From Pachysolen tannophilus NRRL Y-2460 (lineage: Eukaryota), in contig KV454018.1 of assembly GCA_001661245.1 (NCBI GenBank), positions 307,944 to 371,943 on the forward strand: DNA of 64,000 nt. Reading direction: 5' to 3'. Of the stretch, positions 467-63,096 are shown piece after piece (within the stretch, counting starts at the first letter, position 1; every line of letters starts with the position of its first letter). A program made the position numbers and the translations under genes. The notes below the pieces were generated by a model, which saw nothing but the letters and a program-made list of their open reading frames with translations, ran no database searches and had not been told where the DNA came from.

Positions 467-870
467 ATGATCACAAAGTATTTCACAAAAGTTGTTGTAA
501 AGTTTAACCCATTTGGTAAAGAAGGTTAGTTAAAAAAAAAATAAAAAAAATTTGTTTCTGGGTTGTTGAATTACCAGCAGCTTATTGTTCATTTATGCTC
601 ATTTACTAACTATACGTTTTTCATTTTTTAAATATAGGTAAATCTTCTAGGTTATTTCTTGCTGCTATTCCACCAGCACTTAGAGGACAGTGTCAGATAG
701 ATTATGAGGTTTTAACTAAAACATCAAAGAATAAACCAATTATAAAAGTTTCATATAAAGATAAAAAGACATTAGAAGCTGATCCTGTACATTCAAATTT
801 TGAAGAGTTACTGGCTTATTTTGATAGACATTCAAGAAAATTGAAGTTAGATGAAGCTATAAAAAGTTGA
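467..870 (+). CDS. MRPL44: Mitochondrial large ribosomal subunit protein Mrpl44 (mL53), spliced: join(467..524,638..870), 96 aa
   Basis: Not in the ORF track. Exon 1 reads MITKYFTKVVVKFNPFGKE; intron 525-637 has GTTAGT, TACTAAC (604-610) and TAG; exon 2 reads GKSSRLFLAAIPP...YKDKKTLEADP...FDRHSRKL. This matches recalled yeast Mrpl44 (MITKYFSKVIVRFNPFGKE...FDRHSK). Confidence 0.93.
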
Positions 871-1261
871 AAAAAATAATCAATTTTAAAGATACAATTT
901 TATTGATTTACCAAATAGATTTCCTTGCTCAATCTTTCCCCCACCACCACCACTACTACTACGCAGATAATTATAACCTTGTACATATACTTTTATACAT
1001 ATATTTTTAGATATTACAATTTAATGGAATATATAAACTACTCAGAACATCTTATTCTTTTATTGTAGCGTCTCGGTTAGTAAGTTAGTAAGTTAGTTAG
1101 TTAGTTGTAAAAATATTGATTTTATTTTACTCTTTTACTGAAAGAAGGTGAAAAAAAAAAATTTTTTATTTTTTTATTTTTATATATTTTTTATTATTTT
1201 ATTATAAAAGATAAAACTTATTTAAATCTTTTAATATCTAAAATTATTTGTATTAGTGGCC

Positions 1262-2110
1262 ATGTCGTTGTTGTCAAGAGTGCCTAGGTTTTCGAAAAAA
1301 GATGTGGTCCAGTCAGAGTCAGAAGATGAAGGGTGGCTGAACGAGTACTCCAATCGTGAAAAGTCTCAAGGTAGTGATGATGATGAAGATGAAGAAGAAG
1401 AAAAAGATGATGAGATGTCTAGAATATCGTTTGGAGCTTTACGTAAGGCGCAACAAAGAATGGAGGAACAAGGAAATAGTAGTAGTGATGAGGATGATTT
1501 TTTTGAAACTGAAACTCCTAGTTCTTTATCAAGGATTGAAGAGAAGAAGTTTAAAAATAAAAAAAATATACAAAATAATAAAAAAAAATCTAAACATGCT
1601 CCAAGTGAAACATCTTCTAAAAAACCAGTTCGTAAGATAAGGGATATACCAGGGTTAAAGAGTATAAAAGATTCAACATTATATACGGATATAAGGTTTG
1701 ATCCTGCTTATGGGAAATCAGATTTAGCAAAGACAAGACAAAATTATAAATTTTTAGATGAATATAGACAAAAAGAATTAAAAGATATGGAAATTTTATT
1801 AAAAGAAAATAATAAAAAAAATTTTTTATCAGGACAAGAATTTGAAGATTTACAATATAAAGTACAATCTTTAAGATCAAGAATAGATACTTTGAAAAAT
1901 AGAGATTTAGAAAATCAAGTTATTAAAGATTTTAAAAATACACATGGTAATTCTAAAGGTAAACCAATTTTTTTGAAAAATAGTGATAAGAGAAAATTAA
2001 TACAAAAGGCTAAATTTGAAGGTATGAAATCGAAACAAAGAGAAAAAGTTATGGAAAGAAAGAAGAAGAAGAGATTGGGTAAGGAATTTAAACAAATGGA
2101 GTTTATGTAA
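1262..2110 (+). CDS. RRP36: 90S preribosome component Rrp36 (DUF947)
   Basis: Acidic N-terminus, ISFGALRKAQ, HAPSETSSKKPV, DIRFDP, NYKFLDEYR and a basic C-terminus; first ATG at 1262. Confidence 0.88.
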   Translation: MSLLSRVPRFSKKDVVQSESEDEGWLNEYSNREKSQGSDDDEDEEEEKDDEMSRISFGALRKAQQRMEEQGNSSSDEDDFFETETPSSLSRIEEKKFKNKKNIQNNKKKSKHAPSETSSKKPVRKIRDIPGLKSIKDSTLYTDIRFDPAYGKSDLAKTRQNYKFLDEYRQKELKDMEILLKENNKKNFLSGQEFEDLQYKVQSLRSRIDTLKNRDLENQVIKDFKNTHGNSKGKPIFLKNSDKRKLIQKAKFEGMKSKQREKVMERKKKKRLGKEFKQMEFM

Positions 2111-2261
2111 GAAAAGAAAAGAGAAAAAAATTGGGTAACATTTATATTATATATATATATATATATATATATTAATTTTTAAAAAAAAAATAATAAAAAA
2201 AAAAAGACACCCTTTCTATTCATACATAGAAACTAATGTAACATATTCAATTCGATAATGC

Positions 2262-3059: not shown

Positions 3060-4466
3060 ATGTCGTTTCGAAGAAGAGGTGATATTATTGGGAATCCTCA
3101 ACAAGTTTCTGGAGTTGGTGTGAATAGAAATTCTGGTGCTGTTCCTGGTGCTATTCCTAATGCGGTTCCTGGTAGAAGTTTTCCTAATGTTCATACTCAA
3201 AGTCGTCCAACATCCATTTCATCTAGAGTACCACAGTCAATTTCTTCACCTGTAGCTTTAACAGGGAAACCAAAAGACACAGGGCTGAATATATTGAATC
3301 ATCCTGGTGTGAAGCCTTCTATTTTAACGTCTCAACCCACGGTTTCCACTGGATCATCGGAGTTGGATAAGATATTGGGTCATCAAGGTTTACCATTAGG
3401 ATGTTCTATGCTTATTGAAGAAAATGGTACTACAGATTTTGCTACTGTTTTAGTAAAGAAATTTTGTTCTCAAGGGATTGTTCAAAATAGGTTAAATAAT
3501 AAAGATCAAAATAATACATATTTAATAGTTGTTGGTATGGATTCTTCTTGGGGGAAAAATTTACCTGGATTATATAAAGGTTCTTTAAAAGATCAAAAGA
3601 AATCAAAAATTGTTGAACTGGAATCGAAATTAAGTGTTTCAAATTTAGTAAATAAACCATTACCTAAAAGAGAGAATGATTTAAAAATTGCATGGAGATA
3701 TGGTCATTTAAATAAAGATGATCCAGAACTGATAAAAATTCATAATTCCTCATCAGCTTATCCAGATTATAATCATCAATTTGATATCACTTCTTCTTTA
3801 ATACCAGCACCTCATTCAAATGAAATTGCTTATGTTCCTATTCAATCCAAATTAACAAATGTTATTAAACAAATAGATACTCTTGTGAATAAGAACAATG
3901 GGAAATTGATTAGATTAATTGTTCCAAGTTTCTTAAATCCAATAATATATCCTTCAACTATATCAAATATTGAAATATTAAAATTTATTAAAAATTTGAA
4001 ATCATTAACAAGAAAATATTCAAATGAAATTGTAATAACTTTAACATTAAATTTAGATTTATACCCTAGAGAAAATCCATTAACTACATTAATTGAAAAA
4101 TTTTTTGATTGTATTATTGAATTAAAACCATTTGATCCAAAATTATATGAATTAATAGAAAGAAGTTATTCTAAAAATCCGAAAAGAATAAAACAAGGTT
4201 TCTTAAATATTTACAAGATCCCAATATTATCCGATTTAGGACTAAATCTAATAAAAGAAATGGAATATTGTTTTAAAAATGGTAAAAGAAATTTTGAAAT
4301 CGATGAATGGTCTATACCTGTTGATGAAGAAACAGCTACAGATAACAATAACAATGGAGAAAATAATAAACTTCACCAACAACATTCCCATTCTCATTCT
4401 GACATTGACATTGGATCATCATCTAACCCAATGCAAGGTCAGACAAAGAAAAACGTTGAATTCTAA
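3060..4466 (+). CDS. ELP4: Elongator complex subunit Elp4
   Basis: MSFRRRG start, STGSSELDKILGHQGLPLG, LIEENGTTDFA, DLKIAWRY, FEIDEWSIP. Confidence 0.9.
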   Translation: MSFRRRGDIIGNPQQVSGVGVNRNSGAVPGAIPNAVPGRSFPNVHTQSRPTSISSRVPQSISSPVALTGKPKDTGLNILNHPGVKPSILTSQPTVSTGSSELDKILGHQGLPLGCSMLIEENGTTDFATVLVKKFCSQGIVQNRLNNKDQNNTYLIVVGMDSSWGKNLPGLYKGSLKDQKKSKIVELESKLSVSNLVNKPLPKRENDLKIAWRYGHLNKDDPELIKIHNSSSAYPDYNHQFDITSSLIPAPHSNEIAYVPIQSKLTNVIKQIDTLVNKNNGKLIRLIVPSFLNPIIYPSTISNIEILKFIKNLKSLTRKYSNEIVITLTLNLDLYPRENPLTTLIEKFFDCIIELKPFDPKLYELIERSYSKNPKRIKQGFLNIYKIPILSDLGLNLIKEMEYCFKNGKRNFEIDEWSIPVDEETATDNNNNGENNKLHQQHSHSHSDIDIGSSSNPMQGQTKKNVEF

Positions 4467-7504: not shown

Positions 7505-10082
7505 TTATTCATTCCAATCAAACTTTCTAACTCTAATTGGAATATTAATTTCTTTCTTACCATATGAACCAAAATCAAGATGAACTGTGATGTTATATAA
7601 TCTTGAGACATGACAGCTTTGAAATGTTGGGATCAAAGTTAATTCTCTTATATCCTGCACTTTTAAATCAAATTTGATCTTTTTTTTATAAACCAAATTA
7701 TTATTACCTGATTCTTGAGAAATTTTCCAATTTTCAATACTGCAATTTTGAACTTTAAATAAAGGTAAAGAATTTTTTTCAAAATGTAAAGTACATATCG
7801 ATTTAATATCTTTCATTGTTTTCAGCAGTATTGTAGTATGTTTTGGTAATTTCTTTAATCTTGAAACAAACTCTGTAAAATTCTTTTTAATTTTTTTAAA
7901 ATCTTCCAATTCACCACTGCTACCCATTTTAAGAAGAAATGAGTTATCAAAAGTGACAGGAATATCATATATGGAACTAATATTCCAAATAGTTAAATCA
8001 GTCATGATTGAAATAAATTTTGGAGGTTGAGTATCAGAGGAAACAGGTTTAAACTCAAAATTTAATTCAATTGAATGAATAGTTTGCTTTTCTGTTGTTG
8101 TTAATGCAGAATCTAAAAGAGAAATGTTATCCTTACCTGCAGCATCCATATTTGACTTTGTATTTGTCTTTTGTATTAAAGAAGGAGAAATATAGGATAA
8201 ACCTTCATTGGGGAGATACCAAAAGACATCTACCTTCCCTAATAGAGCAGTAGGAGAAGGAGTTGAAGATGAAGATGAACAACTAGAAACTATAGGAGTG
8301 ATTTCTTGATTATTGCTATTATTCGTTTTACTGGATTTTTTGAATAAATTGGTTACAAAATTTGAATTTTTCCCCTTTTTACTAATCAATTCAAAAGTAT
8401 TTTGTTGAACAATTTTTTCCTTTGATGAGTTAGATAAGGGGAAACAAGGAATATCACTATAGTTATTTGAAGAAAGTTGAACTCTTTTCCTATTTTGAAT
8501 TTCTTCATTATTTAATGATGATGACTCATCATCGCCTTCAGAGGAATGAGATGGCAAGCCAACAATACCATTATCATTATCATTACCGCTGCCACTACCA
8601 CTACCAAGTGAGGATACAGTTGAAGAAGTAGCTGAAGCTGCTGCTGAAGCTGCCGAGGCTGCCGAGGCTCTTCTTTCTAAATGTTTTATTTCGGTATCAA
8701 TTCTATTCTGTAAGATTTCAAATTGTTTTTCAGTACTCAATTCACTGTTTAAAGGGATACAAAAACCATAAGGGATAAATCGTATATGATGTTCTGCATC
8801 AGCTATAACTTTAAATTTTATTTTTTCACATTCTGTAAGACTTATATTACTTGTATTTGAACTTGAAATTTCTTTTAAATTAAGTTTATCATCAATTTCA
8901 CCTTCTTTTTTACTAACAAGTAATACAGCTTTAATCAGATAATTAATTGAATTTTTACCACTATAATCTTTCATTAATAATGGTGAACCTGAAACATTAG
9001 GAATCTTACCATAACCCAATATATTATTATATTCAATATTTGCAACTTTACCATTAAATGAATTTTCATCTACTCCAAAACTTGGTGGTAACATCATATG
9101 CATTGCATGTTGTGAATCACAAGTTTCATCTAATAATTGTAAAGGGAATTTAAATATAAAATATTTTCTATATTTTGTATTTGCTTTTAATATTCTATCA
9201 TGTGGTAAATAAACATGATAACCATCATCATCACGAATTCCTGGACTATAATCATTCTTACTATTTAATATAGGCATTGAACAATAAGACCAACCAGCAG
9301 TTAAATCAAACATACGTAAAAACAGTTTTTTAGAAGTGTTAATAGTTTTTTTCAAAGAGTTACCAGAAGAAATTGATGAAAAACCTTCTAATCTAACAGA
9401 AAAACTTTCAAATGGAACATCTTTATCATTATTATTTTCAATATTAACATAACCATAAACACTATCACCAGATGTATATTCTTTTAAAACATGTTCTTTT
9501 TCAAGTTCTTTTTGAAATGGAGTCAGTAATTTTTTTGTAGTATGGATTTCAATTAATACCCCTTTATCATAAATATGAGGTAAAATATCAATATTTGATA
9601 AAACAGAATCAGAACAACGACCTTCTAACCCAATTGAATTTGATTCATCATTATCATTAATATTATTTGATGTATCAATTGCACAACTATTATATAAAGG
9701 AGGATCATTATTATTATCAAATAAACTTCTATTTAAAATATATTGATGTAATTGAAATGATGGTAAAATATCAAACACCCCACAATCATTATTATCATTA
9801 TTATCAGTGATTGAACTTACTTCTGTTCCATCAGTTCCATCCGCGGTAGGTCTAGTTGAACCTGTAAAAGCCTGAGAATAAGAAGATAAATCATCATTAA
9901 CAGAATTCAGTACCGATTCCAAGTAAGAAGGAATATCATTCTCAAAACCTTTTTCTTTTCAAAATAAATCTAGTTAGTAATTAATCAATTACAATTGAAT
10001 AAAAATTTTAGTGGCAAAAATCTTTTCTTATTTTAAATAAAAGATAAAAAAAAGAAAATTATACTTAATACTTACCTTCCAT
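7505..10082 (-). CDS. Bul1/Bul2-family Rsp5 ubiquitin-ligase adaptor, spliced: exon 1 10082..10076, exon 2 from 9948 (or 9954) to 7505
   Basis: DILPSF..PPLY (PY motif), LKEYTSGD, FLRMFDL, LPPSFG, LIPTFQSC. The tracked ORF starts at TTG. Upstream: ATG GAA G|GTAAGT, TACTAAC (9979-9973) and in-frame AAG acceptors, giving MEGFENDIPSYLESV. Confidence 0.8.
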
Positions 10083-10347
10083 TTGTAATTTAAACTAAAG
10101 TTATTAACAACGACTAATAATATAAATCTATAACAAAAATCCATTTTTAAATAATCAGAATTTTTAAGAAAAGGGAATATTTGGACATATTTATGTGGTT
10201 TAATTATCATCTCAAGTGAGTATAAATTATGACTAATTAAGATCTAAGACTTCGCATTACATTAGATACAGGGAGAATTTTAATAATAATAATAATAATA
10301 ATAAGAAAAAAGAAAAAGAAAAAGCAAAAAAAATAATTTTTTTTTCC

Positions 10348-10354
10348 TGAGTCA
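10348..10354. promoter_or_regulatory. Gcn4/AP-1 element TGAGTCA upstream of the BUL-family gene
   Basis: Exact TGAGTCA next to a poly-T tract, about 265 bp upstream of the reconstructed ATG. Confidence 0.4.
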
Positions 10355-10498
10355 CAAAAAACGTTTCCTCCTCTTCTTATTGCCATGAATCATATCAATG
10401 GATAAAAAGATCAATGGACCAATAGAATCATAACTTGTTATCATTAAACTAAATAAATTCAAATCGATAACTCCACCACTTCATTATAAATACATATA

Positions 10499-10534
<36 letters not shown>

Positions 10535-12627: not shown

Positions 12628-12662
<35 letters not shown>

Positions 12663-20761: not shown

Positions 20762-21772
20762 CTACCATTCACTTTCCCCATTTGCCTTTTGGAAAGTATA
20801 GTCCTTACCGTTAACGTTGGCAATACCATCTCGGAGATTACACTTCCACTTATTTTTAACCCTCAGGACTTTTTCGTAAAGACATAACATTAGGTTTCCT
20901 TCTTGGTCTTCATTTTCTTCATCTGAATTTAAAGAGTCTTCATCATCATCAAGATCTGAATTTATATCATCTGACCCTATATTGACATCATCTTCATCTT
21001 CCTCTCCCGAGGAGTATAGTCCATCGACTTGTGCTATTCTTTTCTTCTTCATGTGTTGTCTTTTCTTATTTTTTCTTTGTAATCTTTTCATGAATTTTAA
21101 AGCTTCTTCATTTTGTTCACTATCATTATTATCAACATCAAATGTAATTTCAAAAGCTCCATCCGATTGATTTACAACCCTGCCCCCGCCTGGTAGTATC
21201 AATCCTGTGTCTTCTTGATTTCCTGCCGATGATGATATTGCACTAGGATACTGTAAAGCCGCAGCTACATCTGGACTAATTGTTGGTTCCGGATGGTTTA
21301 AATTTATCTGTAAAGAGGAGGAATTATTATTAGTGCCATTAGTGTTTGAATCCGCATGGTCCAATGAAAAATTTCCAGCTGAACCTTGACTCAGACCTGG
21401 AGACGCCTGTGGAGGTAATTGTCCATTATCTTCTTTTGCATTAACCCATGGAAAATCTGCAACTTTTGATTGAGCCAATTTTTGCATCCAAATCTAAAAA
21501 CAACAACGAAAAAAAAAGGGCATTAGTAATTTGTTGCTGAAAACACTCACATGAAAGCTGATATACTTACTTTTCTTAAATCTTGCAAAGTAGCTTCATC
21601 AATTCCACTATCTTCAAAATCTTGTCTTGATTCAGCAATGACATCTTCAATTATACTTTGATAAATGTTGGCCTAGACAATAAGAAAAAAAAAAGAAAAA
21701 AACCGTTAGTAACCGCCATTCGCTTTCGAAAGAAACTCAAATGTAATTACTTACTGTTTCTGGATTTGACAT
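20762..21772 (-). CDS. TOA1: TFIIA large subunit, two introns: exons 21772..21755, 21672..21571, 21493..20762
   Basis: Spliced N-terminus MSNPETANIYQSIIEDVIAESRQDFEDSGIDEATLQDLRKIWMQKL; C-terminal LCLYEKV.RVKNKWKC...GESEW. Both introns run GTAAGT...TAG, with branch points TACTAAC (21711-21705) and TACTAAT (21528-21522). Confidence 0.95.
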
Positions 21773-33635: not shown

Positions 33636-34712
33636 TTATTTTTGTAAATAAAGTATTTCAGATAAATTTGTTAATCTTGTTGCAGCCTGTTCAGGTGTTA
33701 GATCTCTTTGAGGTTCGCCCAACAATTCAAAACCAACGAGGAATTTTCTAACTGTAGCACTTCTTAACAATGGTGGGTAAAAATGCATATGGAACCAAGA
33801 AGTATTTTCGGTTTCTTCATCGCACCTTAATGGTGCTTGATGCATTCCCATAGAGTAAGGGAAAGAAGTTTCAAATAAATTATCGTATCTAGTAGTCAAT
33901 CTTTTAATGATATCTGCCAAATCTTTTTTTTGCTTGGTATTAAATTTTTTTATCGAAGTCAAATGTTCTTTGGAAACAATCATGGTTTCAAAAGGCCATA
34001 CGGCCCAATATGGTACCACAGCTATAAAAGAATCATTCTCAACAACAATTCTTTCCCTTTTCTGTAATTCTAATTGGACATAATCACCCAACAAATGTGA
34101 ATTATGGGTTTTCCTATAATTCGACATATTGAGAAGCTCATGATCAACCTCTGTTGGAACAGTATCAAGGCACCAAGCTTGTCCATGAGGATGAGGATTG
34201 GAACATCCCATAGCTGAACCTTTATTTTCAAAAATTTGAACGTACTTAAAAGGTTTAGATGAATCTTTTTGTAAATCCACATACAATTGCTGCCAAATAT
34301 TCACAACTTTTTCAATCAGTTCAATATCCATCTGGGGTAAGGTTAAATTATGTTTTGGAGAAAAACAAATGACAAAACATTGGCCCTTAACACCTTGGGT
34401 ATGGAATAACCTCGACTCTAAAGAATCATCATTATCTTTCTCTTCACTATGATAATCTGGTTGATCTAATTTAACTGCTGAGTAATCATTCGGAAACACA
34501 AAAGTTGTTTGATAGTCTGGATTCACCGGCCCAGTAGCACGTTGATTCCTAGGACAAAGATAACACTTAGGATCATACTCTGGCCTATCATCTTTTGGAA
34601 CATCCTCTTTTTGACCTAACCATGGTCTCTTGGCTCTATGTGGAGAAACCAAAACCCAGCTATTGGATAATGGATTATAACGACGATGTGAGTGATCTGT
34701 AAAATCAAACAT
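33636..34712 (-). CDS. GAL7: Galactose-1-phosphate uridylyltransferase
   Basis: HSHRRYNPL, HRAKRPW.GQ, CYLCP, FENKGSAMGCSNPHPHGQ, LRSATVRKF. Confidence 0.98.
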   Translation of the reverse strand: MFDFTDHSHRRYNPLSNSWVLVSPHRAKRPWLGQKEDVPKDDRPEYDPKCYLCPRNQRATGPVNPDYQTTFVFPNDYSAVKLDQPDYHSEEKDNDDSLESRLFHTQGVKGQCFVICFSPKHNLTLPQMDIELIEKVVNIWQQLYVDLQKDSSKPFKYVQIFENKGSAMGCSNPHPHGQAWCLDTVPTEVDHELLNMSNYRKTHNSHLLGDYVQLELQKRERIVVENDSFIAVVPYWAVWPFETMIVSKEHLTSIKKFNTKQKKDLADIIKRLTTRYDNLFETSFPYSMGMHQAPLRCDEETENTSWFHMHFYPPLLRSATVRKFLVGFELLGEPQRDLTPEQAATRLTNLSEILYLQK

Positions 34713-36180: not shown

Positions 36181-37755
36181 TTATTTGCTATATTTTAGAC
36201 CGTCTTCCCCACCAACGTATAAACTACTACCACAAGCTGGTTTAGAAATAACAATTGCTTCTTTTAATTCTGCTTCCGTGATAGTAGGGAATTTTTTCTT
36301 GTAGTACTTTTCGATTAAGGCTTTTTCAACGGTTGATACTTTATCTGAAGGTATTAGATGAACAGTACAACCACCCCAACCTGCTCCAGTTAATCTTGAT
36401 CCTGTACTACCAGCCAGTCTTGCAATAGAACAAACTTCATCAATTTCAGAACATGAACAACCATAGTTTGAATCACATGATTTTTGAGATTCATCCATTA
36501 ATTCACCAAATTTAGTGAAAAATTCTAAAGAATCTGAAGGTTTTGATTCTAATAAGAATAATGCATCCAAGACTCTTAATTCTTCCGAATAAGTATGTTT
36601 TGCACGTTTATACAATTGTAATTTATCAAAAATAACAGTATTTTTACTCAAGAATTTTTCTTTATAACCTTCTACCGATAAACCAATACCAGAAGCAGCT
36701 TGTTCAAGAGTGTAACCTTCATCTTTTAATTCAAATGTCTTTTCAACTAATTCCAACATCTTGTTTAATCTTTTCTTACCTTCAGAAGCATCACCGTTCC
36801 AAGGAGGAGAGTTATGATATTTAGCATAATACAGATCCATGAAGCTACTTAAAGTTCCAGTAGACAAACCACTATCCTGTTTCAATATATCATTCACGCC
36901 ATATGAACGAGCTAAAAATTCAGCAGCAGAGCAGACTTCCACAACCCTTAGATTATAATTTCTCGGAGCAGTCTCATGCTTATTAGAAACCACCAAGGTA
37001 TTTGCAATTAAAAATGAAATTGGTGGCTTTGTATCTGGGAATTTAAACAGGGTACAACTTAATTTTGGTTTAAACTGAACATATAAAGCATGATCTCTCT
37101 CACCATAAATTGAAGCGGTCTGATCCATTCCACCAGTATTGACACCAACATATTTTTCAGAGACAACACAAATCTTTGATAAATTTTCCCTTGTTAATAA
37201 CGATTCCTCAATATCGTTCACTTTCAAACAAGCCAAGGCAACACTACATGCAAATGCAGCAGAAGAACTCAACCCACCACCTATAGGAACAGTACCATCT
37301 GCAATAACTTGTAAACCTTTCAAAGGCTTACCTTTCCTTTCAGGGTAATGCTCCAAGATAAATAAATGAGCTACCAATAAACCACACTTAAAATAATTAG
37401 ACCAATCGCTAATTTTACTATCAATAGATATCAACGACCCATCTTCAGGTAATTCAAATTTCTTCTCAGCAAACTCATTACTCAAATTTTTCAAATGAAT
37501 TTCTCTTGAATCTGCCCTACTCTTGACTGCAATGACAAAATCAACATCAATTGCCAATGGTAAAACCGAAAAATATGAATAATCAATATGCTCCCCAATT
37601 AAATTAACCCTTCCAGGAGATCTCGAGATAAAATCTGGGGTAGCTTTAAAAATTGACTTAAAGCTATCAAAAAGCAGCTTATACCTATCAACTTGCTGAT
37701 CCGGATAAGAATAAAAATCAAGAGTTTTAAATACCGGAATATCTGACTTACTCAT
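36181..37755 (-). CDS. GAL1: Galactokinase, 524 aa
   Basis: RSPGRVNLIGEHIDY, PIGGGLSSSAA, GGMDQ, GSRLTGAGWGG; true ATG at 37755 (MSKSDIP). Confidence 0.97.
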   Translation of the reverse strand: MSKSDIPVFKTLDFYSYPDQQVDRYKLLFDSFKSIFKATPDFISRSPGRVNLIGEHIDYSYFSVLPLAIDVDFVIAVKSRADSREIHLKNLSNEFAEKKFELPEDGSLISIDSKISDWSNYFKCGLLVAHLFILEHYPERKGKPLKGLQVIADGTVPIGGGLSSSAAFACSVALACLKVNDIEESLLTRENLSKICVVSEKYVGVNTGGMDQTASIYGERDHALYVQFKPKLSCTLFKFPDTKPPISFLIANTLVVSNKHETAPRNYNLRVVEVCSAAEFLARSYGVNDILKQDSGLSTGTLSSFMDLYYAKYHNSPPWNGDASEGKKRLNKMLELVEKTFELKDEGYTLEQAASGIGLSVEGYKEKFLSKNTVIFDKLQLYKRAKHTYSEELRVLDALFLLESKPSDSLEFFTKFGELMDESQKSCDSNYGCSCSEIDEVCSIARLAGSTGSRLTGAGWGGCTVHLIPSDKVSTVEKALIEKYYKKKFPTITEAELKEAIVISKPACGSSLYVGGEDGLKYSK

Positions 37756-39300: not shown

Positions 39301-41370
39301 ATGTCTTACATTTTGGTTACTGGTGGTGCTGGGTATATCGGTTCGCATACCGTTGTGGAATTGGTAAATAATGGTTACAACGTTGTTGTTGTTGATAACT
39401 TAGTTAATTCTTCTTATGATGTTATTGTAAGAATTGAGGTGTTGACTAGGAAACAAATTCCTTTCTTCAAGATTGATTTGAATGATCATGATGCGTTGGA
39501 TCAAGTTTTTAAACTGTATCCTATCCAAGCTGTTTTGCACTTTGCTGCTTTGAAAGCAGTTGGTGAATCTACTAAATTCCCATTAAATTATTATAGTAAT
39601 AATGTTGGGGGTGCAATTAGTTTGCTAAAAGTTATGGAAGAAAACAATGTTAAAAACATTGTTTTCAGTTCTTCTGCAACGGTTTATGGGGATGCTACAA
39701 GGTTTGAAAATATGATTCCAATCCCTGAACATTGTCCAACGGGACCTACAAACCCATATGGTGAAACCAAGATTACCATTGAAAACATTATCAGGGACGT
39801 TTATGCTAATGATAAGTCATGGAAATGTGCAATCTTAAGGTATTTCAATCCAATTGGTGCTCATCCTTCTGGTTTAATAGGAGAAGATCCTTTAGGTATA
39901 CCTAATAATTTGCTCCCTTTCTTAGCTCAAGTCGCTATTGGTAGAAGGGAAAAATTAAGTGTCTTTGGAAGTGATTATAATTCCAAAGATGGTACTCCTA
40001 TAAGAGACTACATTCACGTGATCGATTTAGCAAAAGGTCACATTGCTGCTTTAAATTATCTTTTCAACCATAAAGATAATGGTCTTTGTAGAGAATGGAA
40101 TCTTGGAACAGGTAATGGTTCTACAGTCTTTGAAGTTTTCAATGCCTTTTGTGAGGCAGTTGGTAAAAAATTGCCATTTGAAGTTGTTGGTAGAAGAGAT
40201 GGTGATGTCTTAAATTTAACTGCAAATCCAAAGAGAGCAAATACAGAATTAAAATGGAAAGCTCAATTATCGATTAATGATGCTTGTAAAGATTTATGGA
40301 ATTGGACTACGAAAAATCCATTTGGTTTCCAAATAAACAATTATTCATGGACTAAATTTGATTCTGAATCGTTGACAAATTATGATAGATTAAATACTGT
40401 AAGGACTTTTAACGGTAAATTTGAAGTTTCAATTTCAAATCATGGTGCTACAATTGTTGCAGCTAAATTAAACGGAATTAAATTAAATTTGGGTTTTGAT
40501 AATTTGAAAGGCTATTTAAGAGAAGATAATCCATTCTTTGGGGCTACTATTGGTAGAGTTGCTAACAGAATTTCTAAAGGTGATTTACTCATTAATGGAA
40601 CCCATTACCAAGTTGGTTTAAATGAGCTGCATCGTACATCACTTCATGGTGGTACTTATGGTTATAACAAGAGGACTTTCTTGGGTCCAATTGTTAAGAC
40701 AAACGAGAAGGAAAAGGAAACTACCATGGAATTTGTCTTGATTGATTTAGATGGTACTGAAGGATATCCAGGTGATGTCGAGACTAAAGTCATCTATACA
40801 GTTAGAGATACCGGTGTAGGAGGTGAGCTTGGTATTGAATATGAGGCTAAGTTATTAGAAGAAAGTGGTCGTGATTCCACAGCAGTTAGCTTAACCAATC
40901 ATTCTTATTGGAATATTGGTAATCAACCTTCAATTGAGGGAACTCACATTAAATTAGTTTCAAATAAACATTTGGAGAGTAATCCTCTGGATTCAACTCC
41001 AACTGGTAAAATTGTTACTTCAACTGATTTGGATTCCCAAAATTCTGCCAAATTAGGTCCAGATGGTCCTGTATTTGACTATTGTTTTGTCACAAAACAA
41101 CAGGATAAGTTGGATACAAGAAATGACGAGCTACGTGTTGTTGCAACTGCAACACACCCAAAGACGAGAATTGCATTCACTACTTTGACCACAGAACCTG
41201 CATTCCAATTCTACACTGGTGACGGTGTCGATGTTGCTGGAGTTTTCACCAAGAGAAGTGGATTCTGTCTTGAAGCTAGCAGATACATCTATAACCCAAA
41301 ATGGTTTATTCCTTTGAATAAAGGGGAAGTTTACGGTTCATATACCATTTACAGGTTCGAGAATTTTTAA
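39301..41370 (+). CDS. GAL10: Bifunctional UDP-glucose 4-epimerase / aldose 1-epimerase
   Basis: GGAGYIGSH, SSSATVYG, YGETK, LRYFNPIGAH; mutarotase domain GRVANRI, LHGG, TNHSYWN, QFYTG, GFCLE. Confidence 0.98.
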   Translation: MSYILVTGGAGYIGSHTVVELVNNGYNVVVVDNLVNSSYDVIVRIEVLTRKQIPFFKIDLNDHDALDQVFKLYPIQAVLHFAALKAVGESTKFPLNYYSNNVGGAISLLKVMEENNVKNIVFSSSATVYGDATRFENMIPIPEHCPTGPTNPYGETKITIENIIRDVYANDKSWKCAILRYFNPIGAHPSGLIGEDPLGIPNNLLPFLAQVAIGRREKLSVFGSDYNSKDGTPIRDYIHVIDLAKGHIAALNYLFNHKDNGLCREWNLGTGNGSTVFEVFNAFCEAVGKKLPFEVVGRRDGDVLNLTANPKRANTELKWKAQLSINDACKDLWNWTTKNPFGFQINNYSWTKFDSESLTNYDRLNTVRTFNGKFEVSISNHGATIVAAKLNGIKLNLGFDNLKGYLREDNPFFGATIGRVANRISKGDLLINGTHYQVGLNELHRTSLHGGTYGYNKRTFLGPIVKTNEKEKETTMEFVLIDLDGTEGYPGDVETKVIYTVRDTGVGGELGIEYEAKLLEESGRDSTAVSLTNHSYWNIGNQPSIEGTHIKLVSNKHLESNPLDSTPTGKIVTSTDLDSQNSAKLGPDGPVFDYCFVTKQQDKLDTRNDELRVVATATHPKTRIAFTTLTTEPAFQFYTGDGVDVAGVFTKRSGFCLEASRYIYNPKWFIPLNKGEVYGSYTIYRFENF

Positions 41371-42200: not shown

Positions 42201-43652
42201 TTATTTTGATTTCTTCAATGTATCGGTATTAATTCTGATATCAACCATTCCTACACCAATAAAGGAAATTAAAGCAATGAATATGAAAAATGAGATTGAT
42301 AATGCTTTTTTAAATAAATCATATTTTGTTAATCTATATTTGATTATCACCTGTGTATTTCTCATTTCATCTACTAAATTTGTAAAATTCATGCTAACTT
42401 CAGTATGTCCTTCTGTAATATCCAAATATGAATAAAATTGTTCGACATTGTAATCTTCGAAAACAATTGATGATGAAACATTCAATATTTGTGAACCTGA
42501 GGGCAAATATGCTTTAAATTGTAATTTATTATATCCACAGTCAATTGGACCGTTAAATAATGGGACTTTTAAGATAAATTCATCATTACCTAAATCGACC
42601 AAATAATTACTTAATGGGTTTGTAAAACCAATAGTGAAATTATAATGCCAACCACCAAATATTGGGAAACGAGGCCTTAATAATAAGTTTGAACCAATGA
42701 CACTTGATGTTGAGACATTTCCAACAAGGTCAGTATAATAAATTTCAGTAGTTTCATCATCCATAATTGGGATATCAATTGAATTAATTGTTGGATTTAA
42801 TTTAGTACCTAATCTTTTTTTCATATAATCCACTCTTGAAAATCCATTTTTCAAAGCTGCACCTTTATTTGTCAATTCGTAATTTTCTTCAACTTGTATC
42901 GTGGAAGCCCAATGAGAAACCCAATAACCTCTTTCCAAATTGTCAATGTACATTAATGGATGAACTCTATCATATAATATTGCCATTGGTATTTGTTCAA
43001 GTAAAGGTTCATTTGACAAATCAAACGGTCCATATTCTATTATCTTATTATCCACAACATGACTTGCATATTTCTCAAATACTGACAGAGGAACTTGTGG
43101 AAGTCTTAATTCATTTGCGGCACCTTGGAATCCGGTAAATTTTAAATCATATGTCTTGGTAGGATAGATTGATAAAGGTAATTTATTTGTTTGAAATACT
43201 AAACTTTGTTTATCATCCATTTCAACTTTTTCTGGTAATGGCTTAATTTGATTATTATATATCAAAGAAACAGCAAATTTTATTGTTGCCTTTGGTGCAA
43301 TAGGGAAAGGCATTGTAATTCTGAAAAATTTCAAATTTTTTAAATTAAAATCATCTTCAACTGGTTCAACAATTAAAGCCATTTGTCTACCTTTCTTCTC
43401 AATAGTAGGAAGAAATAAAGCAAGATCTTCAGACAGCTCTTCTGGAATCGGAAAATAATAATAGCTTTCAGGTTGAGATGCAACATTTTGAATCTGAATA
43501 TTAACCGATTCTTTAACATAAGATCTCAGTAAATCTATATTTCTAGAAAGCTCAACATTTTCCCAAGTACTCTCCGCAACAATTGATTCAGAACAAACCA
43601 ACGAAAACACAAACGTAAGTAAAACGGAAATATGAAAAACCACTTTCATCAT
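42201..43652 (-). CDS. OST1: Oligosaccharyltransferase alpha subunit (ribophorin I)
   Basis: Signal peptide, WVSHW, FSRVDY, YYTDLVGNVSTS, PRFPIFGGWHYNFTIG, C-terminal TM segment. Confidence 0.94.
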   Translation of the reverse strand: MMKVVFHISVLLTFVFSLVCSESIVAESTWENVELSRNIDLLRSYVKESVNIQIQNVASQPESYYYFPIPEELSEDLALFLPTIEKKGRQMALIVEPVEDDFNLKNLKFFRITMPFPIAPKATIKFAVSLIYNNQIKPLPEKVEMDDKQSLVFQTNKLPLSIYPTKTYDLKFTGFQGAANELRLPQVPLSVFEKYASHVVDNKIIEYGPFDLSNEPLLEQIPMAILYDRVHPLMYIDNLERGYWVSHWASTIQVEENYELTNKGAALKNGFSRVDYMKKRLGTKLNPTINSIDIPIMDDETTEIYYTDLVGNVSTSSVIGSNLLLRPRFPIFGGWHYNFTIGFTNPLSNYLVDLGNDEFILKVPLFNGPIDCGYNKLQFKAYLPSGSQILNVSSSIVFEDYNVEQFYSYLDITEGHTEVSMNFTNLVDEMRNTQVIIKYRLTKYDLFKKALSISFFIFIALISFIGVGMVDIRINTDTLKKSK

Positions 43653-44413: not shown

Positions 44414-45325
44414 ATGTCGCAGGTTCAGGAGATCAAGGGTTTTTTAGTTTTGCCCGTGAGGTTAGAGCCTACTGTTGTCCAGCAAAAGCTAAAGTATAAT
44501 AATGAAGGTCTGATATATCATTATATATATTTGAAAAAACATTCTGTGAAGAGAGATTTGAAATCAATGGAAAAAGATGATGAAAGATCATTATTTATAG
44601 CGAACTTGCCTATTAATACTGATTTAAAAACTATCAAATTATTTTTTGGGATGATTGCTACAGGTGCAATAGTGGAAAAATTTGAACAAAATGATTTTAA
44701 TACTTTTGATATTGATATAAATTTAACCAAATTAACAAGTGAAATGAATGAAAAAACAGAAGTTTCAAATTCAGATTATTCATATATACCCTTTGGTTGT
44801 GGGATAGTAACATTTTTGGATAAAAATGGATTAAATTTGGCTTTACAATCTATCAAGAAATTAATAAAGAAAGGAAATGATAATCTCCCCATTTGGGAAT
44901 TTAATAAAGAATTAACAGGTTTAGAATATTTGAAAAAAAAAATTCTTAGTCAAGAGTACTTGGATGAAAATGAATTATCTGAAAAAGTTGCAAAAGATAT
45001 GCATAATTTCAATTTAAAAGAACAACAATCTCTTGATGAGTTGAATGAAATGAAAGATATTGTAGATGAAGATGGTTTTACATTGGTTGTTAGTTCTCAC
45101 AGAAAGACTAAAAATGGTATATTTGGTAAATTGAAATCATCTGCTCAACTGGAAAAACATGAAATAATTAACTTGAAACAGAAAAAGAAAGAAAAACAAG
45201 ATTTCTATAGATTTCAACTTAGAGAACGGAAAAAGCAAGAAATGAATGATTTATTACTGAAATTTAAAGAAGATCAAGAAAAAGTTAAAATTATGAAAGA
45301 GAAAAGAAGATTTAAACCTTATTGA
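44414..45325 (+). CDS. RRP7: rRNA processing protein Rrp7
   Basis: LFIANLP, VDEDGFTLV, DFYRFQLRERKK, RRFKPY C-terminus. Confidence 0.95.
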   Translation: MSQVQEIKGFLVLPVRLEPTVVQQKLKYNNEGLIYHYIYLKKHSVKRDLKSMEKDDERSLFIANLPINTDLKTIKLFFGMIATGAIVEKFEQNDFNTFDIDINLTKLTSEMNEKTEVSNSDYSYIPFGCGIVTFLDKNGLNLALQSIKKLIKKGNDNLPIWEFNKELTGLEYLKKKILSQEYLDENELSEKVAKDMHNFNLKEQQSLDELNEMKDIVDEDGFTLVVSSHRKTKNGIFGKLKSSAQLEKHEIINLKQKKKEKQDFYRFQLRERKKQEMNDLLLKFKEDQEKVKIMKEKRRFKPY

Positions 45326-50339: not shown

Positions 50340-50644
50340 NNNNNNNNNNNNNNNNNNNNNNNNNNNNNNNNNNNNNNNNNNNNNNNNNNNNNNNNNNNNN
50401 NNNNNNNNNNNNNNNNNNNNNNNNNNNNNNNNNNNNNNNNNNNNNNNNNNNNNNNNNNNNNNNNNNNNNNNNNNNNNNNNNNNNNNNNNNNNNNNNNNNN
50501 NNNNNNNNNNNNNNNNNNNNNNNNNNNNNNNNNNNNNNNNNNNNNNNNNNNNNNNNNNNNNNNNNNNNNNNNNNNNNNNNNNNNNNNNNNNNNNNNNNNN
50601 NNNNNNNNNNNNNNNNNNNNNNNNNNNNNNNNNNNNNNNNNNNN
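50340..50644. other. Assembly gap (N run) flanked by 7-mer tandem repeats and poly-A
   Basis: 305 N; (TAACAAA)4 at 50304-31 and (TTMCCAA)4 at 50670-97. Confidence 0.97.
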
Positions 50645-54054: not shown

Positions 54055-54933
54055 ATGATGTCAATCTCATCGGATCCACAAAAAACAACAGTTATTATTT
54101 CGAATCTTGCCAAAAAAGATTTCCCATTGAAGGAATCGTCTAATTCGTCATTATCACTGCCGCTGCCGCTGCTGCTGCTGCTGCTGCTGCTGCTGAATCT
54201 TGTTACAACTACATCATCAAGTTTAAAGCTTGCAGAATTTTTAAAACTTAAAGTGCTACAAAAATTGGATACATTAAGTTTAATGAATGATTTAATAAAA
54301 TGGATTAATTTACCAACTTTATCAAGAATTATTATTAAATTTTCTACAGAATCTACATCTAAAAGAATTTATGAATATTTATTACTGAATTTTAGTAAAG
54401 ATTATCCAGCTTTAGAAATTGATTTAATTTCACCTTTAGTTAGAACTAGATCTACAACAGATTCAATGTTAATTGCAAAAGATGGAAAATTGGATGCTCC
54501 TGATTATTTACAATTTCAAGATTTAAATGTACATTGCAAATTGAAAAATTCAAATAATACTTGTTATCAAGAACCAAGACCACAAAAATCTCCTGCAAGT
54601 TCTGCAAGTAATACACCTTTAGCATCACCAATTGATAGTAGTATTCTTAACGTTAGTGGTAGTGCTAGTGGTAGTGAATATTTTTTCGATGAAAGTGATC
54701 ATAGCCGTAGTCGTACTCCACAAGTGATATATTCTCCTACTCAGTATCAAGGAAAAGAATCAGATGTATTCCGTTATGATATTAACACAGGTGATTGTGA
54801 TTATGATCATGAAAAACCAAATTTAAGCATTAATACTAATATCAACGCAAGTAAAATTTTTGAAGGAGTAAATAGCTCCGATAGTATTCAAGAAAGTCCG
54901 ATAATTACACTTGATGAAACTTTTACGAAGTAG
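54055..54933 (+). CDS. RCN2: Calcineurin regulator (calcipressin, Rcn2-like)
   Basis: RRM-like N-terminus (LPTLSRIIIKF), YQEPRP, PxIxIT-like PNLSINT and terminal SPIITL; located between RPL5 and COX11/RDS2/MCT1 as expected from yeast synteny. Confidence 0.6.
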   Translation: MMSISSDPQKTTVIISNLAKKDFPLKESSNSSLSLPLPLLLLLLLLLNLVTTTSSSLKLAEFLKLKVLQKLDTLSLMNDLIKWINLPTLSRIIIKFSTESTSKRIYEYLLLNFSKDYPALEIDLISPLVRTRSTTDSMLIAKDGKLDAPDYLQFQDLNVHCKLKNSNNTCYQEPRPQKSPASSASNTPLASPIDSSILNVSGSASGSEYFFDESDHSRSRTPQVIYSPTQYQGKESDVFRYDINTGDCDYDHEKPNLSINTNINASKIFEGVNSSDSIQESPIITLDETFTK

Positions 54934-60439: not shown

Positions 60440-61045
60440 CAATGATTACCATCAAATACAATTTTTTTTTACAACATAATATAGAAAATAATCATTTACT
60501 TATAATTCAATATTCACTTCAACAAACCATCATTCTTCAATCAAGATCTGTAGTCATACTATAAAAGAATATGAATAATACTCATCTGGAGTCCGAAAAG
60601 GAGAGGTAGTCAACCGTCTTTCTCTTTCTCTTTCTCTTGCTTGACCTTGAGATGCCTTCTTCTTTCTATCCGGTGAGCAAGAGCTTTTCTTTTTCTGACT
60701 GGACTGCAGACTGCAAGGGCCATCCATCCATCCTTCCATCCCCTTTACAAACAGGGGCGGGACTTCTTTTCTCTAGGAAATAGTATTGTACTTCCAATGG
60801 TTTCCCCGGACCCTCTCCGAACCGGTTGCATAGTTGAGAAGAGCCATTAAACGGCGGGCGGCGGTGGCGGCAGTTTAATATAAAGCTGGAGGAGAAGATA
60901 TTACAAGATACGTCTTATATATATATATATCTATATATTTGACATTAAATTAGGAATTGTCATTTGTTCTTTCTCTTGTTTAATTTTTTTTTACGATCAT
61001 ATTCGCTTGTGTGAAATAATAATTAGTGATAGTTAGTCTGGGAAA

Positions 61046-61690
61046 ATGTCAGGTTCATCTGTAGAGGAAGAAACTAAGAAAGTTGCGGAATCAGTTTTGC
61101 CGTCATCTTCAGATGATACAACAGATTCATCATTGAGATATGCTGCTTATGCCAATAGGTTCAGGACAATCTTGTTGGCCTCGCATAGGTACATTGCTTA
61201 TTCTTCTGATATTGGTGAAAGTTTTAGACCTGTTGCCCACCCTTATTTGGTTAAATCAGGTTATCTCATTTCTTGGACTTATGTATTAGGTGATGTTGCT
61301 TTTGAAGGTTGGAAGGCAAAATTAAGAAAAGAAGGTAAATATATTCCAGGTTTGAGACCTTGGGATAAAGTACCTGAGGCCAGTCCATTGGCAATTGCAG
61401 CAGCCAAAGATGAACCAGATTATAAATTTACAATGATTAAAAGAGGTGTATTCCAAAGTATTGCATCTATGGGATTACCAGCATTTACAATCCATTCCTC
61501 GGTCAGATATTCTTCACTTTTATTTAAAAATTCCTCAAATAAGTTTTTGAAAACTTGGGGACCAGTTGGTGTAGGTTTGGCAATTGTTCCATTATTACCA
61601 ACTTTTTTCGATGAACCGGTAGAACATGCTGTTGACTATATTTTTGACGAGGGAGCTAAATATTTCAATACAAAGGCAAAGGTTGAATAA
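61046..61690 (+). CDS. Mitochondrial fission process protein 1 (MTP18/MTFP1 family)
   Basis: LRYAAYANR, RYIAYSSDIGESFRPVAHP, YVLGD, FQSIASMGLPAFTIH, FDEPVEHAVD. Confidence 0.85.
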   Translation: MSGSSVEEETKKVAESVLPSSSDDTTDSSLRYAAYANRFRTILLASHRYIAYSSDIGESFRPVAHPYLVKSGYLISWTYVLGDVAFEGWKAKLRKEGKYIPGLRPWDKVPEASPLAIAAAKDEPDYKFTMIKRGVFQSIASMGLPAFTIHSSVRYSSLLFKNSSNKFLKTWGPVGVGLAIVPLLPTFFDEPVEHAVDYIFDEGAKYFNTKAKVE

Positions 61691-62061
61691 ATCACATTTT
61701 AAACCTTGATTCAAATTATTCACCTCTTTGGAAGCTTCTCTTGTAATAATGCCTATTTATAGCATACTTCCTTTCTTGTTGCTTTATCTCCCTATCTCAC
61801 TATTACTCTTACTCTTACTCTCACACATTTATAAACACTATGTGTGTGTATATGTGTCGGTCGGTAATCGGAGATTATTTCTTTTTCTTTTTCCGCTTGT
61901 GTTTTGAAAAATTGAAATTTTTTTTTTTTTTTATTCTTTTTTTTTAGCTTTTTTAGCTTTTTTGGTTGATGTTGTTGATGTGTCTAAACAAGAGTTTATA
62001 TATATTAAATACGAATTTATATATTCCCTCTTAAGATTTCGAGTTTGAATGAAGTGAGATA

Positions 62062-63096
62062 ATGTTTGGTTTTTTAAGTAAAGAGGAAATAAAACCTAGT
62101 GTGAAGAAAGATTTAGGTCCAAAAATTTATGAACCTTTTGAAAAACCACTTGATGGCTTAAAATCGACTCCACGCGACCCATTAACTCTAGATCAAGAGA
62201 AACAATATTTGGAAGTTTTGAATCATTTTTTAAATGATGAATTATCATTACCAGTACGAGAAAAACCAGAAGATTCTTTGGAGTTAAGAAAATTAACCTA
62301 TGATGAAAAATCATGGTTAACAAGAGATTGTATATTAAGATATATTAGAGCATGTAATTGGAAACTTTCAGATGCTATCAAGAGACTTGAAAATTCATTG
62401 ATTTGGAGAAGAGATTTTGGTATATCAGGTGGAGAGTTTCAAACTTTAACTGAAGATGTTGTAGCGATAGAGAATGAAACAGGGAAACAATTAATTTTTG
62501 GTTATGATAATGGTTGTAGGCCATGTCTTTTTTTAAGAAATGGGAAACAAAATACAAAAGCTTCATTTAGACAAATTCAACATTTAATATTTATGTTAGA
62601 ATCAGTAATTGATTTTATGCCACCAGGTGAAGATAATTTAGCTTTATGTGTTGATTTTAAAGCATACCCAGAAATTTCTATTAAAGGTGCAAATATGCCA
62701 TCAGTAAGTGTTGGTAAACAAATTTTACATATTTTACAATACCATTACCCAGAAAGATTAGGAAGAGCATTATTTGTTAATATTCCATGGTATGCTAGAA
62801 TTTTCTTGGATATTTGTTACCCATTTGTTGATCCATATACAAAACAAAAAATTTCATTTGATAAACCATTTTCTGAATTCATTCCATTAGCACAATTAGG
62901 AGTTGAATATGATGGTGATGCTAATTTCGAATATGTTCATGAGAAATATTGGCTGCTGCTTAATAGAATTAAAGATACAAAGAGAAAACATTATATGGAT
63001 AGATTTGAAAAATTGGGTGCCACTATTGGTTTAAACGAATTGGATTTAAGAAGTGATGCACCAATTGTGGATGGAAAAGTTATTTATAAACAATAG
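62062..63096 (+). CDS. Sec14/CRAL-TRIO phosphatidylinositol transfer protein (Pdr16/Pdr17 type)
   Basis: WLTRDCILRYIRA, ENETGKQ, LQYHYPERLGRA, PFVDPYTKQK. Confidence 0.9.
   Translation: MFGFLSKEEIKPSVKKDLGPKIYEPFEKPLDGLKSTPRDPLTLDQEKQYLEVLNHFLNDELSLPVREKPEDSLELRKLTYDEKSWLTRDCILRYIRACNWKLSDAIKRLENSLIWRRDFGISGGEFQTLTEDVVAIENETGKQLIFGYDNGCRPCLFLRNGKQNTKASFRQIQHLIFMLESVIDFMPPGEDNLALCVDFKAYPEISIKGANMPSVSVGKQILHILQYHYPERLGRALFVNIPWYARIFLDICYPFVDPYTKQKISFDKPFSEFIPLAQLGVEYDGDANFEYVHEKYWLLLNRIKDTKRKHYMDRFEKLGATIGLNELDLRSDAPIVDGKVIYKQ

What the first reader, a model, noticed from the sequence alone, without database searches (positions are those of the whole stretch)
811..62958. Non-standard genetic code: CTG is not Leu, most likely Ala
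Seen: CTG at 811-813 in Mrpl44 (FEEL-CTG-AYFDRH) aligns to Ala in recalled S. cerevisiae FQELANHFDRH. CTG at 45257-59 in Rrp7 (LL-CTG-KFKEDQ) aligns to Ser (LLSKFKEDQ). Toa1 KV-CTG-R and Gal10 FK-CTG-Y sit at polar positions, while conserved Leu positions use TTA/TTG/CTT. Known: yeasts have CUG-Ser clades and a CUG-Ala clade (Pachysolen, Nakazawaea). Inference: this is a CUG-Ala yeast, likely Pachysolen tannophilus, whose Gal10 I recall resembling this one (unverified). The reassignment is already described, but it changes every translation here. Ser cannot be fully excluded from this window alone.
Basis: partly seen in the sequence, partly recalled or inferred. Interest (0 to 1): 0.7.

Follow-up and report, generated by a model that had tools for sequence, protein, structure and literature searches.

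The report
Known CUG-to-alanine code of Pachysolen yeast

Summary
All the cited CTG codons are in frame. CTG is rare: 80 of 14,537 codons in 28 ORFs. It avoids leucine-type positions.

- **Pfam scores:** reading CTG as Ser or Ala instead of Leu raises the summed scores by +18.5 and +16.7 bits.
- **Orthologue profiles:** at 12 CTG sites Leu scores -12.5 bits, Ser +4.5 and Ala +3.0. The other five Leu codons all come out as Leu.

The window alone cannot separate Ala from Ser. Single-orthologue comparisons lean slightly to Ser (4 Ser, 1 Ala, 2 Leu at 18 sites).

Species identity decides it. A public record named Pachysolen tannophilus NRRL Y-2460 (PACTADRAFT_35911) matches the window's galactokinase at every aligned residue except the four CTG sites, which it reads as Ala. 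Two further copies from a contig of the same length carry Ala at 6 of 6 CTG sites. An Ost1 tree puts the organism beside Pichiaceae and outside the core CUG-Ser1 clade.

For this species, mass spectrometry and an Ala-type tRNA(CAG) are published (PMC4937558, Results read). No tRNA gene lies in the window and no genome was held, so the tRNA was not checked here.

Verdict: correct and already known (NCBI table 26). Low interest.

The parts
811..813 (+). In-frame CTG codon in the C-terminal exon of an Mrpl44/mL53-like gene (exon readable from about 625 to 870)
   Evidence: It aligns to Val in 6ywe_h.
3060..4466 (+). Elp4 (PAXNEB) ORF with 3 CTG codons (aa 76, 187, 224)
   Evidence: They align to L, E, R in 8asv_G. 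Pfam score 303.2 (Leu) / 307.1 (Ser) / 306.6 (Ala).
20762..21487 (-). TFIIA large subunit (Toa1) 3' exon ORF. CTG at aa 32 and aa 208 (20864-20866, KV[CTG]R).
   Evidence: Site 208 aligns to Thr in 1nh2_C.
33636..34712 (-). GAL7 (galactose-1-phosphate uridylyltransferase) with 1 CTG (aa 132)
   Evidence: 237.3 / 239.0 / 239.4 bits for Leu / Ser / Ala
36181..37755 (-). GAL1 (galactokinase) with 4 CTG codons (aa 27, 236, 308, 447). This is the gene that names the organism.
   Evidence: P0241 (Pachysolen tannophilus NRRL Y-2460) differs from the table-1 translation over the aligned residues 5-524 only at these 4 sites, all Ala.
39301..41370 (+). GAL10 (UDP-glucose 4-epimerase / mutarotase) with 3 CTG codons (aa 72 at 39514-39516, 443, 563)
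   Evidence: The database copy P0001 has Ala at all 3.
42201..43652 (-). OST1 (ribophorin I) with 3 CTG codons (aa 42, 73, 189)
   Evidence: The database copy P0121 has Ala at all 3.
44414..45325 (+). RRP7 with 3 CTG codons (aa 33, 246, and 282 at 45257-45259)
   Evidence: They align to A, L, S in 4m5d_B.
54157..54195 (+). CTG-rich tract: CTG CCG CTG CCG followed by nine CTG in a row, inside ORF 54055-54933. Table 26 reads it as APAPAAAAAAAAA.
62953..62958 (+). Two adjacent CTG codons in a Sec14-like (CRAL/TRIO) ORF, 62062-63096. This is the last CTG pair of the finding.

Best explanation
The window is nuclear DNA of Pachysolen tannophilus (order Alaninales). This yeast uses NCBI genetic code 26, in which CUG is read as alanine by a tRNA-Ala whose anticodon has mutated to CAG.

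**Shown here.**
- CTG is rare.
- It sits at positions that are not leucine-like.
- The DNA matches a named P. tannophilus record.
- Public translations of these genes carry Ala at CTG.

**Taken from the literature, not tested here.**
- The tRNA(CAG) has alanine identity elements (G3:U70, A73, no long variable arm).
- Mass spectrometry finds Ala at 97.2% of 907 fully supported CUG positions.

**Inferred.** All 81 in-frame CTG codons counted in this window should be read as Ala.
For: **1. Species.** One search lists P0241, 'PACTADRAFT_35911 [Pachysolen tannophilus NRRL Y-2460]', on a contig of 947,628 bp. Blastp finds that its only differences from the window's Gal1 over the aligned residues 5-524 are the 4 CTG sites, all L to A. 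P0001 (Gal10) and P0121 (Ost1) lie on a contig of the same length. They are 100% and 99% identical and carry Ala at 6 of 6 CTG sites.

**2. Not Leu, Pfam.** Scores were compared under tables 1, 12 and 26 for 14 of the 22 CTG-bearing ORFs, over 16 family matches that hold a CTG. In sum Ser beats Leu by 18.5 bits and Ala beats Leu by 16.7 bits. 13 of the 16 matches improve (sums by hand).

**3. Not Leu, orthologue profiles.** At 12 CTG sites the sums are Leu -12.5, Ser +4.5 and Ala +3.0 bits. The five other Leu codons all return Leu. Mean Leu frequency in CTG columns is 0.01-0.10. In TTA and TTG columns it is 0.38-0.68.

**4. Some Ala signal.** Gal1 columns show Ala 0.56 at site 308, 0.33 at site 447 and 0.15 at site 236. 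Ser there is 0.11, 0.13 and below 0.01.

**5. Phylogeny.** The best named Ost1 hits are Pichiaceae at 38-41%. In the quick ML tree the query groups with Pichiaceae rows (SH-aLRT 80). It lies outside the core CUG-Ser1 clade of 4 rows (100*).

**6. Usage matches the paper.** 22 of 28 ORFs (79%) hold a CTG, and the mean is 2.9 per ORF. The paper gives 80% of genes affected and 16,824 CUG positions in 5,288 proteins.

**7. Literature.** PMC4937558, Results read. PMC5951914, passages read: the Ala clade comprises Pachysolen, Nakazawaea and Peterozyma.
Against: - Alignment evidence from the window does not favour Ala over Ser. Ser is ahead by 1.8 bits with Pfam (9 families favour Ser, 6 Ala, 1 tie) and by 1.5 bits with orthologue profiles.
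- In the orthologue profiles the best-scoring residues are Gln (+9.0), Lys (+8.8) and Glu (+6.3), not Ala.
- At 18 CTG sites compared with the best solved homologue, the partner is Ser 4 times, Glu 3, Leu 2, Val 2, Ala 1, and G, K, I, P, R, T once each.
- Ost1 site 42 is Ser in both solved homologues and Ser 0.35 in the deep column.
- Leu scores best in three Pfam matches: ATPase_2 37.8/33.7/34.5, Bul1_C 64.0/62.3/61.7 and Sugar_tr 381.5/380.2/381.3. It is also ahead of Ser and Ala at Ost1 site 73.
- The Ala in the public records is the depositor's choice of translation table, not a measurement.
- No tRNA gene is in the window and no genome was held.
Confidence: 0.95

Rival explanations
1. CUG is read as serine (NCBI table 12), as in the CUG-Ser1 yeasts (Candida, Debaryomyces) or the CUG-Ser2 yeasts (Ascoidea, Saccharomycopsis).
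For: - Ser scores marginally above Ala in both profile tests: +1.8 bits and +1.5 bits.
- 4 of 18 partners in solved homologues are Ser, against 1 Ala.
- The best named hits for Gal10 and Gal1 include Babjeviella and CUG-Ser1 species.
Against: - The DNA matches a record named Pachysolen tannophilus NRRL Y-2460.
- Published proteomics for this species shows Ala at 97.2% of supported CUG positions (PMC4937558).
- The Ost1 tree places the query outside the core CUG-Ser1 clade (100*).
- The margins of 1.5 to 1.8 bits are too small to separate the two residues.
- Gal1 sites 236, 308 and 447 favour Ala.
- No named CUG-Ser2 sequence was in the tree, so that clade is excluded only by the species name.
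Confidence: 0.03
2. The code is standard. CTG is an ordinary but rare leucine codon in an AT-rich genome, and its odd positions are chance.
For: - GC content is only about 30%. This alone would make CTG rare.
- 2 of 18 partners in solved homologues are Leu.
- Three Pfam matches score best with Leu.
Against: - Leu loses 17 to 18 bits against Ser or Ala over 16 Pfam matches.
- Leu sums to -12.5 bits at 12 sites in orthologue profiles.
- The equally rare CTA (4 sites) and CTC (3 sites) still return Leu.
- Leu frequency in CTG columns is 0.01-0.10, against 0.4-0.7 for TTA and TTG.
Confidence: 0.01
3. Decoding is ambiguous: CUG is read mostly as Ala, with a biologically meaningful minority of Leu or Ser, as described for Ascoidea asiatica.
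For: A few CTG sites sit in hydrophobic, Leu-like columns:
- Ost1 site 73 (V 0.26, L 0.15).
- The CTG at aa 378 of the AAA ORF, inside the ATPase_2 match.
- The CTG at aa 107 of the sugar transporter.
Against: - The paper reports CUG to be as unambiguous as AUG in Pachysolen. Only 8 ambiguous and 18 non-Ala positions were found among 907.
- Ala is itself tolerated in hydrophobic positions.
- Sequence cannot show this.
Confidence: 0.01

Closest known systems
Pachysolen tannophilus nuclear code, NCBI translation table 26 (CUG = Ala). Ala clade = Pachysolen, Nakazawaea, Peterozyma; order Alaninales.
   Same: - Same organism by a named record.
- CTG is rare and lies at non-Leu positions.
- Public translations carry Ala at 10 of 10 CTG sites checked.
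- The share of genes affected matches: 79% here against 80% in the paper.
   Different: Nothing differs. The tRNA and peptide evidence were not re-examined here. Window-scale alignments do not by themselves single out Ala.
CUG-Ser1 code of Candida and Debaryomyces, NCBI table 12
   Same: - The same codon has been taken away from Leu.
- CTG is rare and found at variable, mostly polar positions.
- The profile tests fit Ser as well as Ala.
   Different: - The capturing tRNA and the amino acid differ.
- The organism lies outside the core Ser1 clade in the Ost1 tree and is named as Pachysolen.
CUG-Ser2 clade (Ascoidea, Saccharomycopsis), partly with competing Leu and Ser tRNAs
   Same: CUG reassignment in a budding yeast.
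   Different: - A different clade, by the abstracts of PMC5951914 and PMC6041473 in the search listing.
- No sign of it here beyond the generic Ser-or-Ala ambiguity.

Membership tests
CUG-Ala nuclear code (NCBI table 26) | CTG codons do not occupy leucine-conserved positions | tested here: met
   Leu loses 18.5 bits to Ser and 16.7 bits to Ala over 16 Pfam matches. Leu sums to -12.5 bits at 12 sites in orthologue profiles, while the 5 other Leu codons return Leu.
CUG-Ala nuclear code (NCBI table 26) | CTG positions fit alanine better than any other residue | tested here: inconclusive
   Ala +3.0, Ser +4.5 and Gln +9.0 bits at 12 sites. Ser is ahead of Ala by 1.8 bits with Pfam. Only the Gal1 sites lean to Ala. 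Too few conserved sites in 64 kb.
CUG-Ala nuclear code (NCBI table 26) | A tRNA with anticodon CAG carrying alanine identity elements (G3:U70, A73, short variable arm) | not testable with these tools
   No tRNA gene in the window and no whole genome held. Reported for this species in PMC4937558.
CUG-Ala nuclear code (NCBI table 26) | The organism belongs to the Ala clade (Pachysolen, Nakazawaea, Peterozyma) | tested here: met
   P0241, named Pachysolen tannophilus NRRL Y-2460, is identical over the aligned residues 5-524 except at CTG sites. Ost1 groups with Pichiaceae, outside the core Ser1 clade. Taxonomy gives order Alaninales.
CUG-Ala nuclear code (NCBI table 26) | Peptides show Ala at CUG | not testable with these tools
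   Literature only: 97.2% of 907 supported positions (PMC4937558 Results). The paper's supplements could not be read, so no peptide from this window's genes could be looked up.
CUG-Ser1 code (NCBI table 12) | The organism lies inside the Debaryomycetaceae / Metschnikowiaceae (Ser1) clade | tested here: not met
   In the quick ML tree of Ost1 the 4 core Ser1 rows form a 100* clade without the query. The named record is Pachysolen.
Standard code (table 1) | CTG columns are predominantly Leu | tested here: not met
   Mean Leu frequency in CTG columns is 0.01 (Gal10), 0.10 (Ost1) and 0.01 (Gal1). In TTA and TTG columns it is 0.38-0.68.

The most novel reading that the evidence does not exclude
The CTG sites in this window are much less constrained than sites of any comparably rare codon. 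Twelve sites give at most +9 bits for any residue and only +3 for Ala. CAG (10 sites) and TCG (11 sites) give +12.5 and +12.8 bits for their own residue.

A minority of CTG sites sit in hydrophobic, Leu-like columns. One could read these as relics of ancestral Leu codons that survived the reassignment, or as sites where a low level of Leu decoding still matters.

The published proteomics argues against ambiguity. The low constraint is what the published tRNA-loss model predicts.
Probability: 0.03. Interest if true: 0.4.

Novelty: already known. Interest (0 to 1): 0.08.

Why it matters
It matters for annotation only. All 81 in-frame CTG codons counted in this window must be translated as Ala (table 26), not Leu, in 22 of the 28 long ORFs and in the Mrpl44 exon. 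The biology was published in 2016 with proteomics and tRNA analysis, and it is already fixed in NCBI's tables and taxonomy.

There is one methodological point. A 64 kb window is enough to reject Leu. It is not enough to tell Ala from Ser by alignment, because reassigned CTG codons sit at weakly constrained positions.

Tried and rejected
- **Whole genome for a tRNA(CAG) scan:** none is held. ARAGORN finds no tRNA in the window.
- **Earlier notes of this scan:** none for this genome.
- **Sequencing runs:** 5 runs from 2 studies hold the stretch. Names are coded and no RNA holder is listed.
- **Supplements of PMC4937558** (wanted for peptides covering this window's CTG sites): not readable here.
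- **Exact-sequence look-up** of five ORFs under tables 26 and 12: the query could not be made because the shared database was switched off.
- **S. cerevisiae Mrpl44:** the PDB sequence search returned only one homologue, even at E up to 10.
- **Careful ML tree of Ost1:** it did not finish in the time allowed, so the quick tree was used.
- **Gal10 as a species marker:** rejected. Its best named hits (Babjeviella, CUG-Ser1 yeasts, Brettanomyces) disagree with Ost1, and many Pichiaceae do not appear at all.
- **Close relatives' residues at CTG sites:** the nearest unnamed relatives are only 51-64% identical and gave no consistent residue.
Full report
**What is in the window.** The 64 kb stretch is AT-rich budding-yeast nuclear DNA, with GC of 0.24-0.33 per 8 kb. 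It holds 28 ATG-started ORFs of 150 aa or more. Pfam names most of them:
- Rrp36, Elp4, Ugp1, an HDAC, Toa1, Ost1, Rrp7, Rpl5, Cox11 and a Sec14-like protein.
- A GAL7-GAL1-GAL10 cluster with a sugar transporter beside it.

No tRNA gene is present, and no whole genome is held for the window.

**Checking the observation.** All the cited codons are real and in frame:
- 811-813, FEEL[CTG]AYFDRH, in the last exon of an Mrpl44-like gene.
- 45257-45259 in Rrp7.
- 20864-20866 in Toa1.
- 39514-39516 in Gal10.
- A CTG pair at 62953-62958.

CTG accounts for 80 of 14,537 codons in the 28 ORFs. TTA accounts for 783 and TTG for 368. CTG occurs in 22 of the 28 ORFs.

The cited alignments hold in part:
- The Rrp7 site pairs with Ser in 4m5d_B but with Lys in 6rxv_CV.
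- The Toa1 site pairs with Thr.
- The Gal10 site pairs with Glu, Ala and Glu.
- The recalled Ala in S. cerevisiae Mrpl44 could not be tested. The only solved homologue found (6ywe_h) has Val there.

**Is CTG leucine?** Two tests say no.

First test: I translated 14 of the 22 CTG-bearing ORFs under tables 1, 12 and 26. These were the ORFs with a Pfam match at or near a CTG. I compared the Pfam bit scores.
- Over the 16 family matches that hold a CTG, I took one family per region and summed by hand.
- Ser beats Leu by 18.5 bits and Ala beats Leu by 16.7 bits.
- 13 of the 16 matches improve.
- The three exceptions, where Leu scores best, are ATPase_2, Bul1_C and Sugar_tr.
- Matches without a CTG moved by 0.5 bits or less and were left out.

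Second test: I built profile HMMs from 119, 119, 119 and 150 homologues of Gal10, Ost1, Gal1 and Rrp7. The window's own copies were excluded. I read the emission odds at every codon of the query.
- 12 of the 13 CTG codons in these four ORFs fall in match states.
- Their sums are Leu -12.5, Ser +4.5 and Ala +3.0 bits.
- The other five Leu codons each return Leu.
- 53 of 58 other codons return their standard residue. The five misses have 7 sites or fewer.

Column frequencies say the same. Leu is 0.01-0.10 in CTG columns and 0.38-0.68 in TTA and TTG columns.

**Which residue?** The window cannot say.
- Ser is ahead of Ala by 1.8 bits with Pfam and by 1.5 bits with orthologue profiles. Gln, Lys and Glu score higher than either. 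The sites are simply weakly constrained surface positions.
- Against the best solved homologue at 18 sites, the partners are Ser 4, Glu 3, Leu 2, Val 2, Ala 1 and six other residues once each. This leans to Ser, not Ala.
- Gal1 leans the other way. Its deep columns show Ala 0.56, 0.33 and 0.15 at sites 308, 447 and 236. In the Gal3 chain 3v2u_C three of the four sites are Ala.
- The nearest relatives, unnamed and 51-64% identical, give no consistent residue.

**What decides it.** The homologue searches returned the window's own proteins from a contig of 947,628 bp.
- P0001 (Gal10) and P0121 (Ost1) have masked names. They carry Ala at all six CTG sites.
- P0241 escaped masking because its gene model is longer (737 aa). 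It is named 'hypothetical protein PACTADRAFT_35911 [Pachysolen tannophilus NRRL Y-2460]'.
- Blastp shows that its only differences from the window's Gal1 over the aligned residues 5-524 are the four CTG sites, all Leu to Ala.

So the window is P. tannophilus, and its public annotation uses table 26.

Other evidence agrees:
- The best named Ost1 hits are Pichiaceae.
- A quick ML tree puts the query with the Pichiaceae rows (SH-aLRT 80). It lies outside a 100* clade of four CUG-Ser1 species. The careful tree did not finish.
- NCBI taxonomy files the species in order Alaninales.

**Comparison with what is known.** Muhlhausen et al. 2016 (PMC4937558; abstract and Results read) report the following for P. 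tannophilus NRRL Y-2460:
- A tRNA(CAG) with G3:U70 and A73 that groups with alanine tRNAs.
- 16,824 CUG positions affecting 80% of 5,288 genes.
- Ala at 97.2% of 907 fully supported CUG positions by LC-MS/MS, with no more ambiguity than at AUG.

The window matches this usage, with 79% of ORFs affected and 2.9 CTG per ORF. Krassowski et al. 2018 (PMC5951914; passages read) define the Ala clade as Pachysolen, Nakazawaea and Peterozyma.

Nothing here departs from that picture. The weak constraint at CTG sites is what a reassignment after codon loss predicts.

**Verdict.** The phenomenon is already known and is coded in public tables. The one caveat is that 'Ala rather than Ser' rests on species identity and the literature, not on this window's alignments. 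Two things were left open here. The tRNA(CAG) gene could not be inspected, and the exact-sequence look-up of further ORFs could not be made.

Noticed in passing
window 37027-37784 and 37902-38660, flanking the N run 37811-37901 (plus a single N at 37785): The 5' part of GAL1 is present twice as a direct repeat: 759 bp at 99.9% identity with one gap, on either side of an assembly gap. The public gene model (P0241, 737 aa) reads through both copies. This is probably a scaffolding artefact, but a real partial tandem duplication is not excluded.
   Followed up: partly
window 30757-41370: A sugar transporter lies beside a GAL7-GAL1-GAL10 cluster. The best named hits of Gal10 are Babjeviella (60%) and CUG-Ser1 yeasts. 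Those of Gal1 are Nadsonia (59%) and Babjeviella (56%). Neither points to Pichiaceae, whereas Ost1 does. Among Pichiaceae only Brettanomyces appears among the named Gal10 and Gal1 hits listed. This may reflect the patchy or horizontal history of GAL clusters in yeasts (recalled, not checked).
   Followed up: no
window 54157-54195, in ORF 54055-54933 (+): A tract of CTG CCG CTG CCG followed by nine CTG. Under table 26 it reads APAPAAAAAAAAA. The ORF has no Pfam match at E 1e-5. A standard-code reader would see a false poly-Leu, signal-peptide-like stretch.
   Followed up: partly
window 1-870 (+): The Mrpl44-like reading frame is open only from about 625 to 870, with stops upstream in the same frame. 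The gene probably has an intron and a short first exon.
   Followed up: no
window 20762-21487 (-): The Toa1 ORF matches only profile positions 302-415 of the 415-position Pfam TFIIA model in its C-terminal part. The conserved N-terminal segment may lie in an upstream exon.
   Followed up: no
window 45854-50002 (-) and 11281-13434 (+): Two long ORFs (1382 aa and 717 aa) have no Pfam match at E 1e-5. The first holds 11 CTG codons, seven of them in a low-complexity N-terminal region rich in Gln, Ser and Pro.
   Followed up: no
window 50340-50644, and 8001-16000: A second N run of 305 bases. Separately, 8001-16000 is the window's lowest-GC stretch (0.237) and has no ORF of 150 aa or more between 9313 and 11281.
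   Followed up: no
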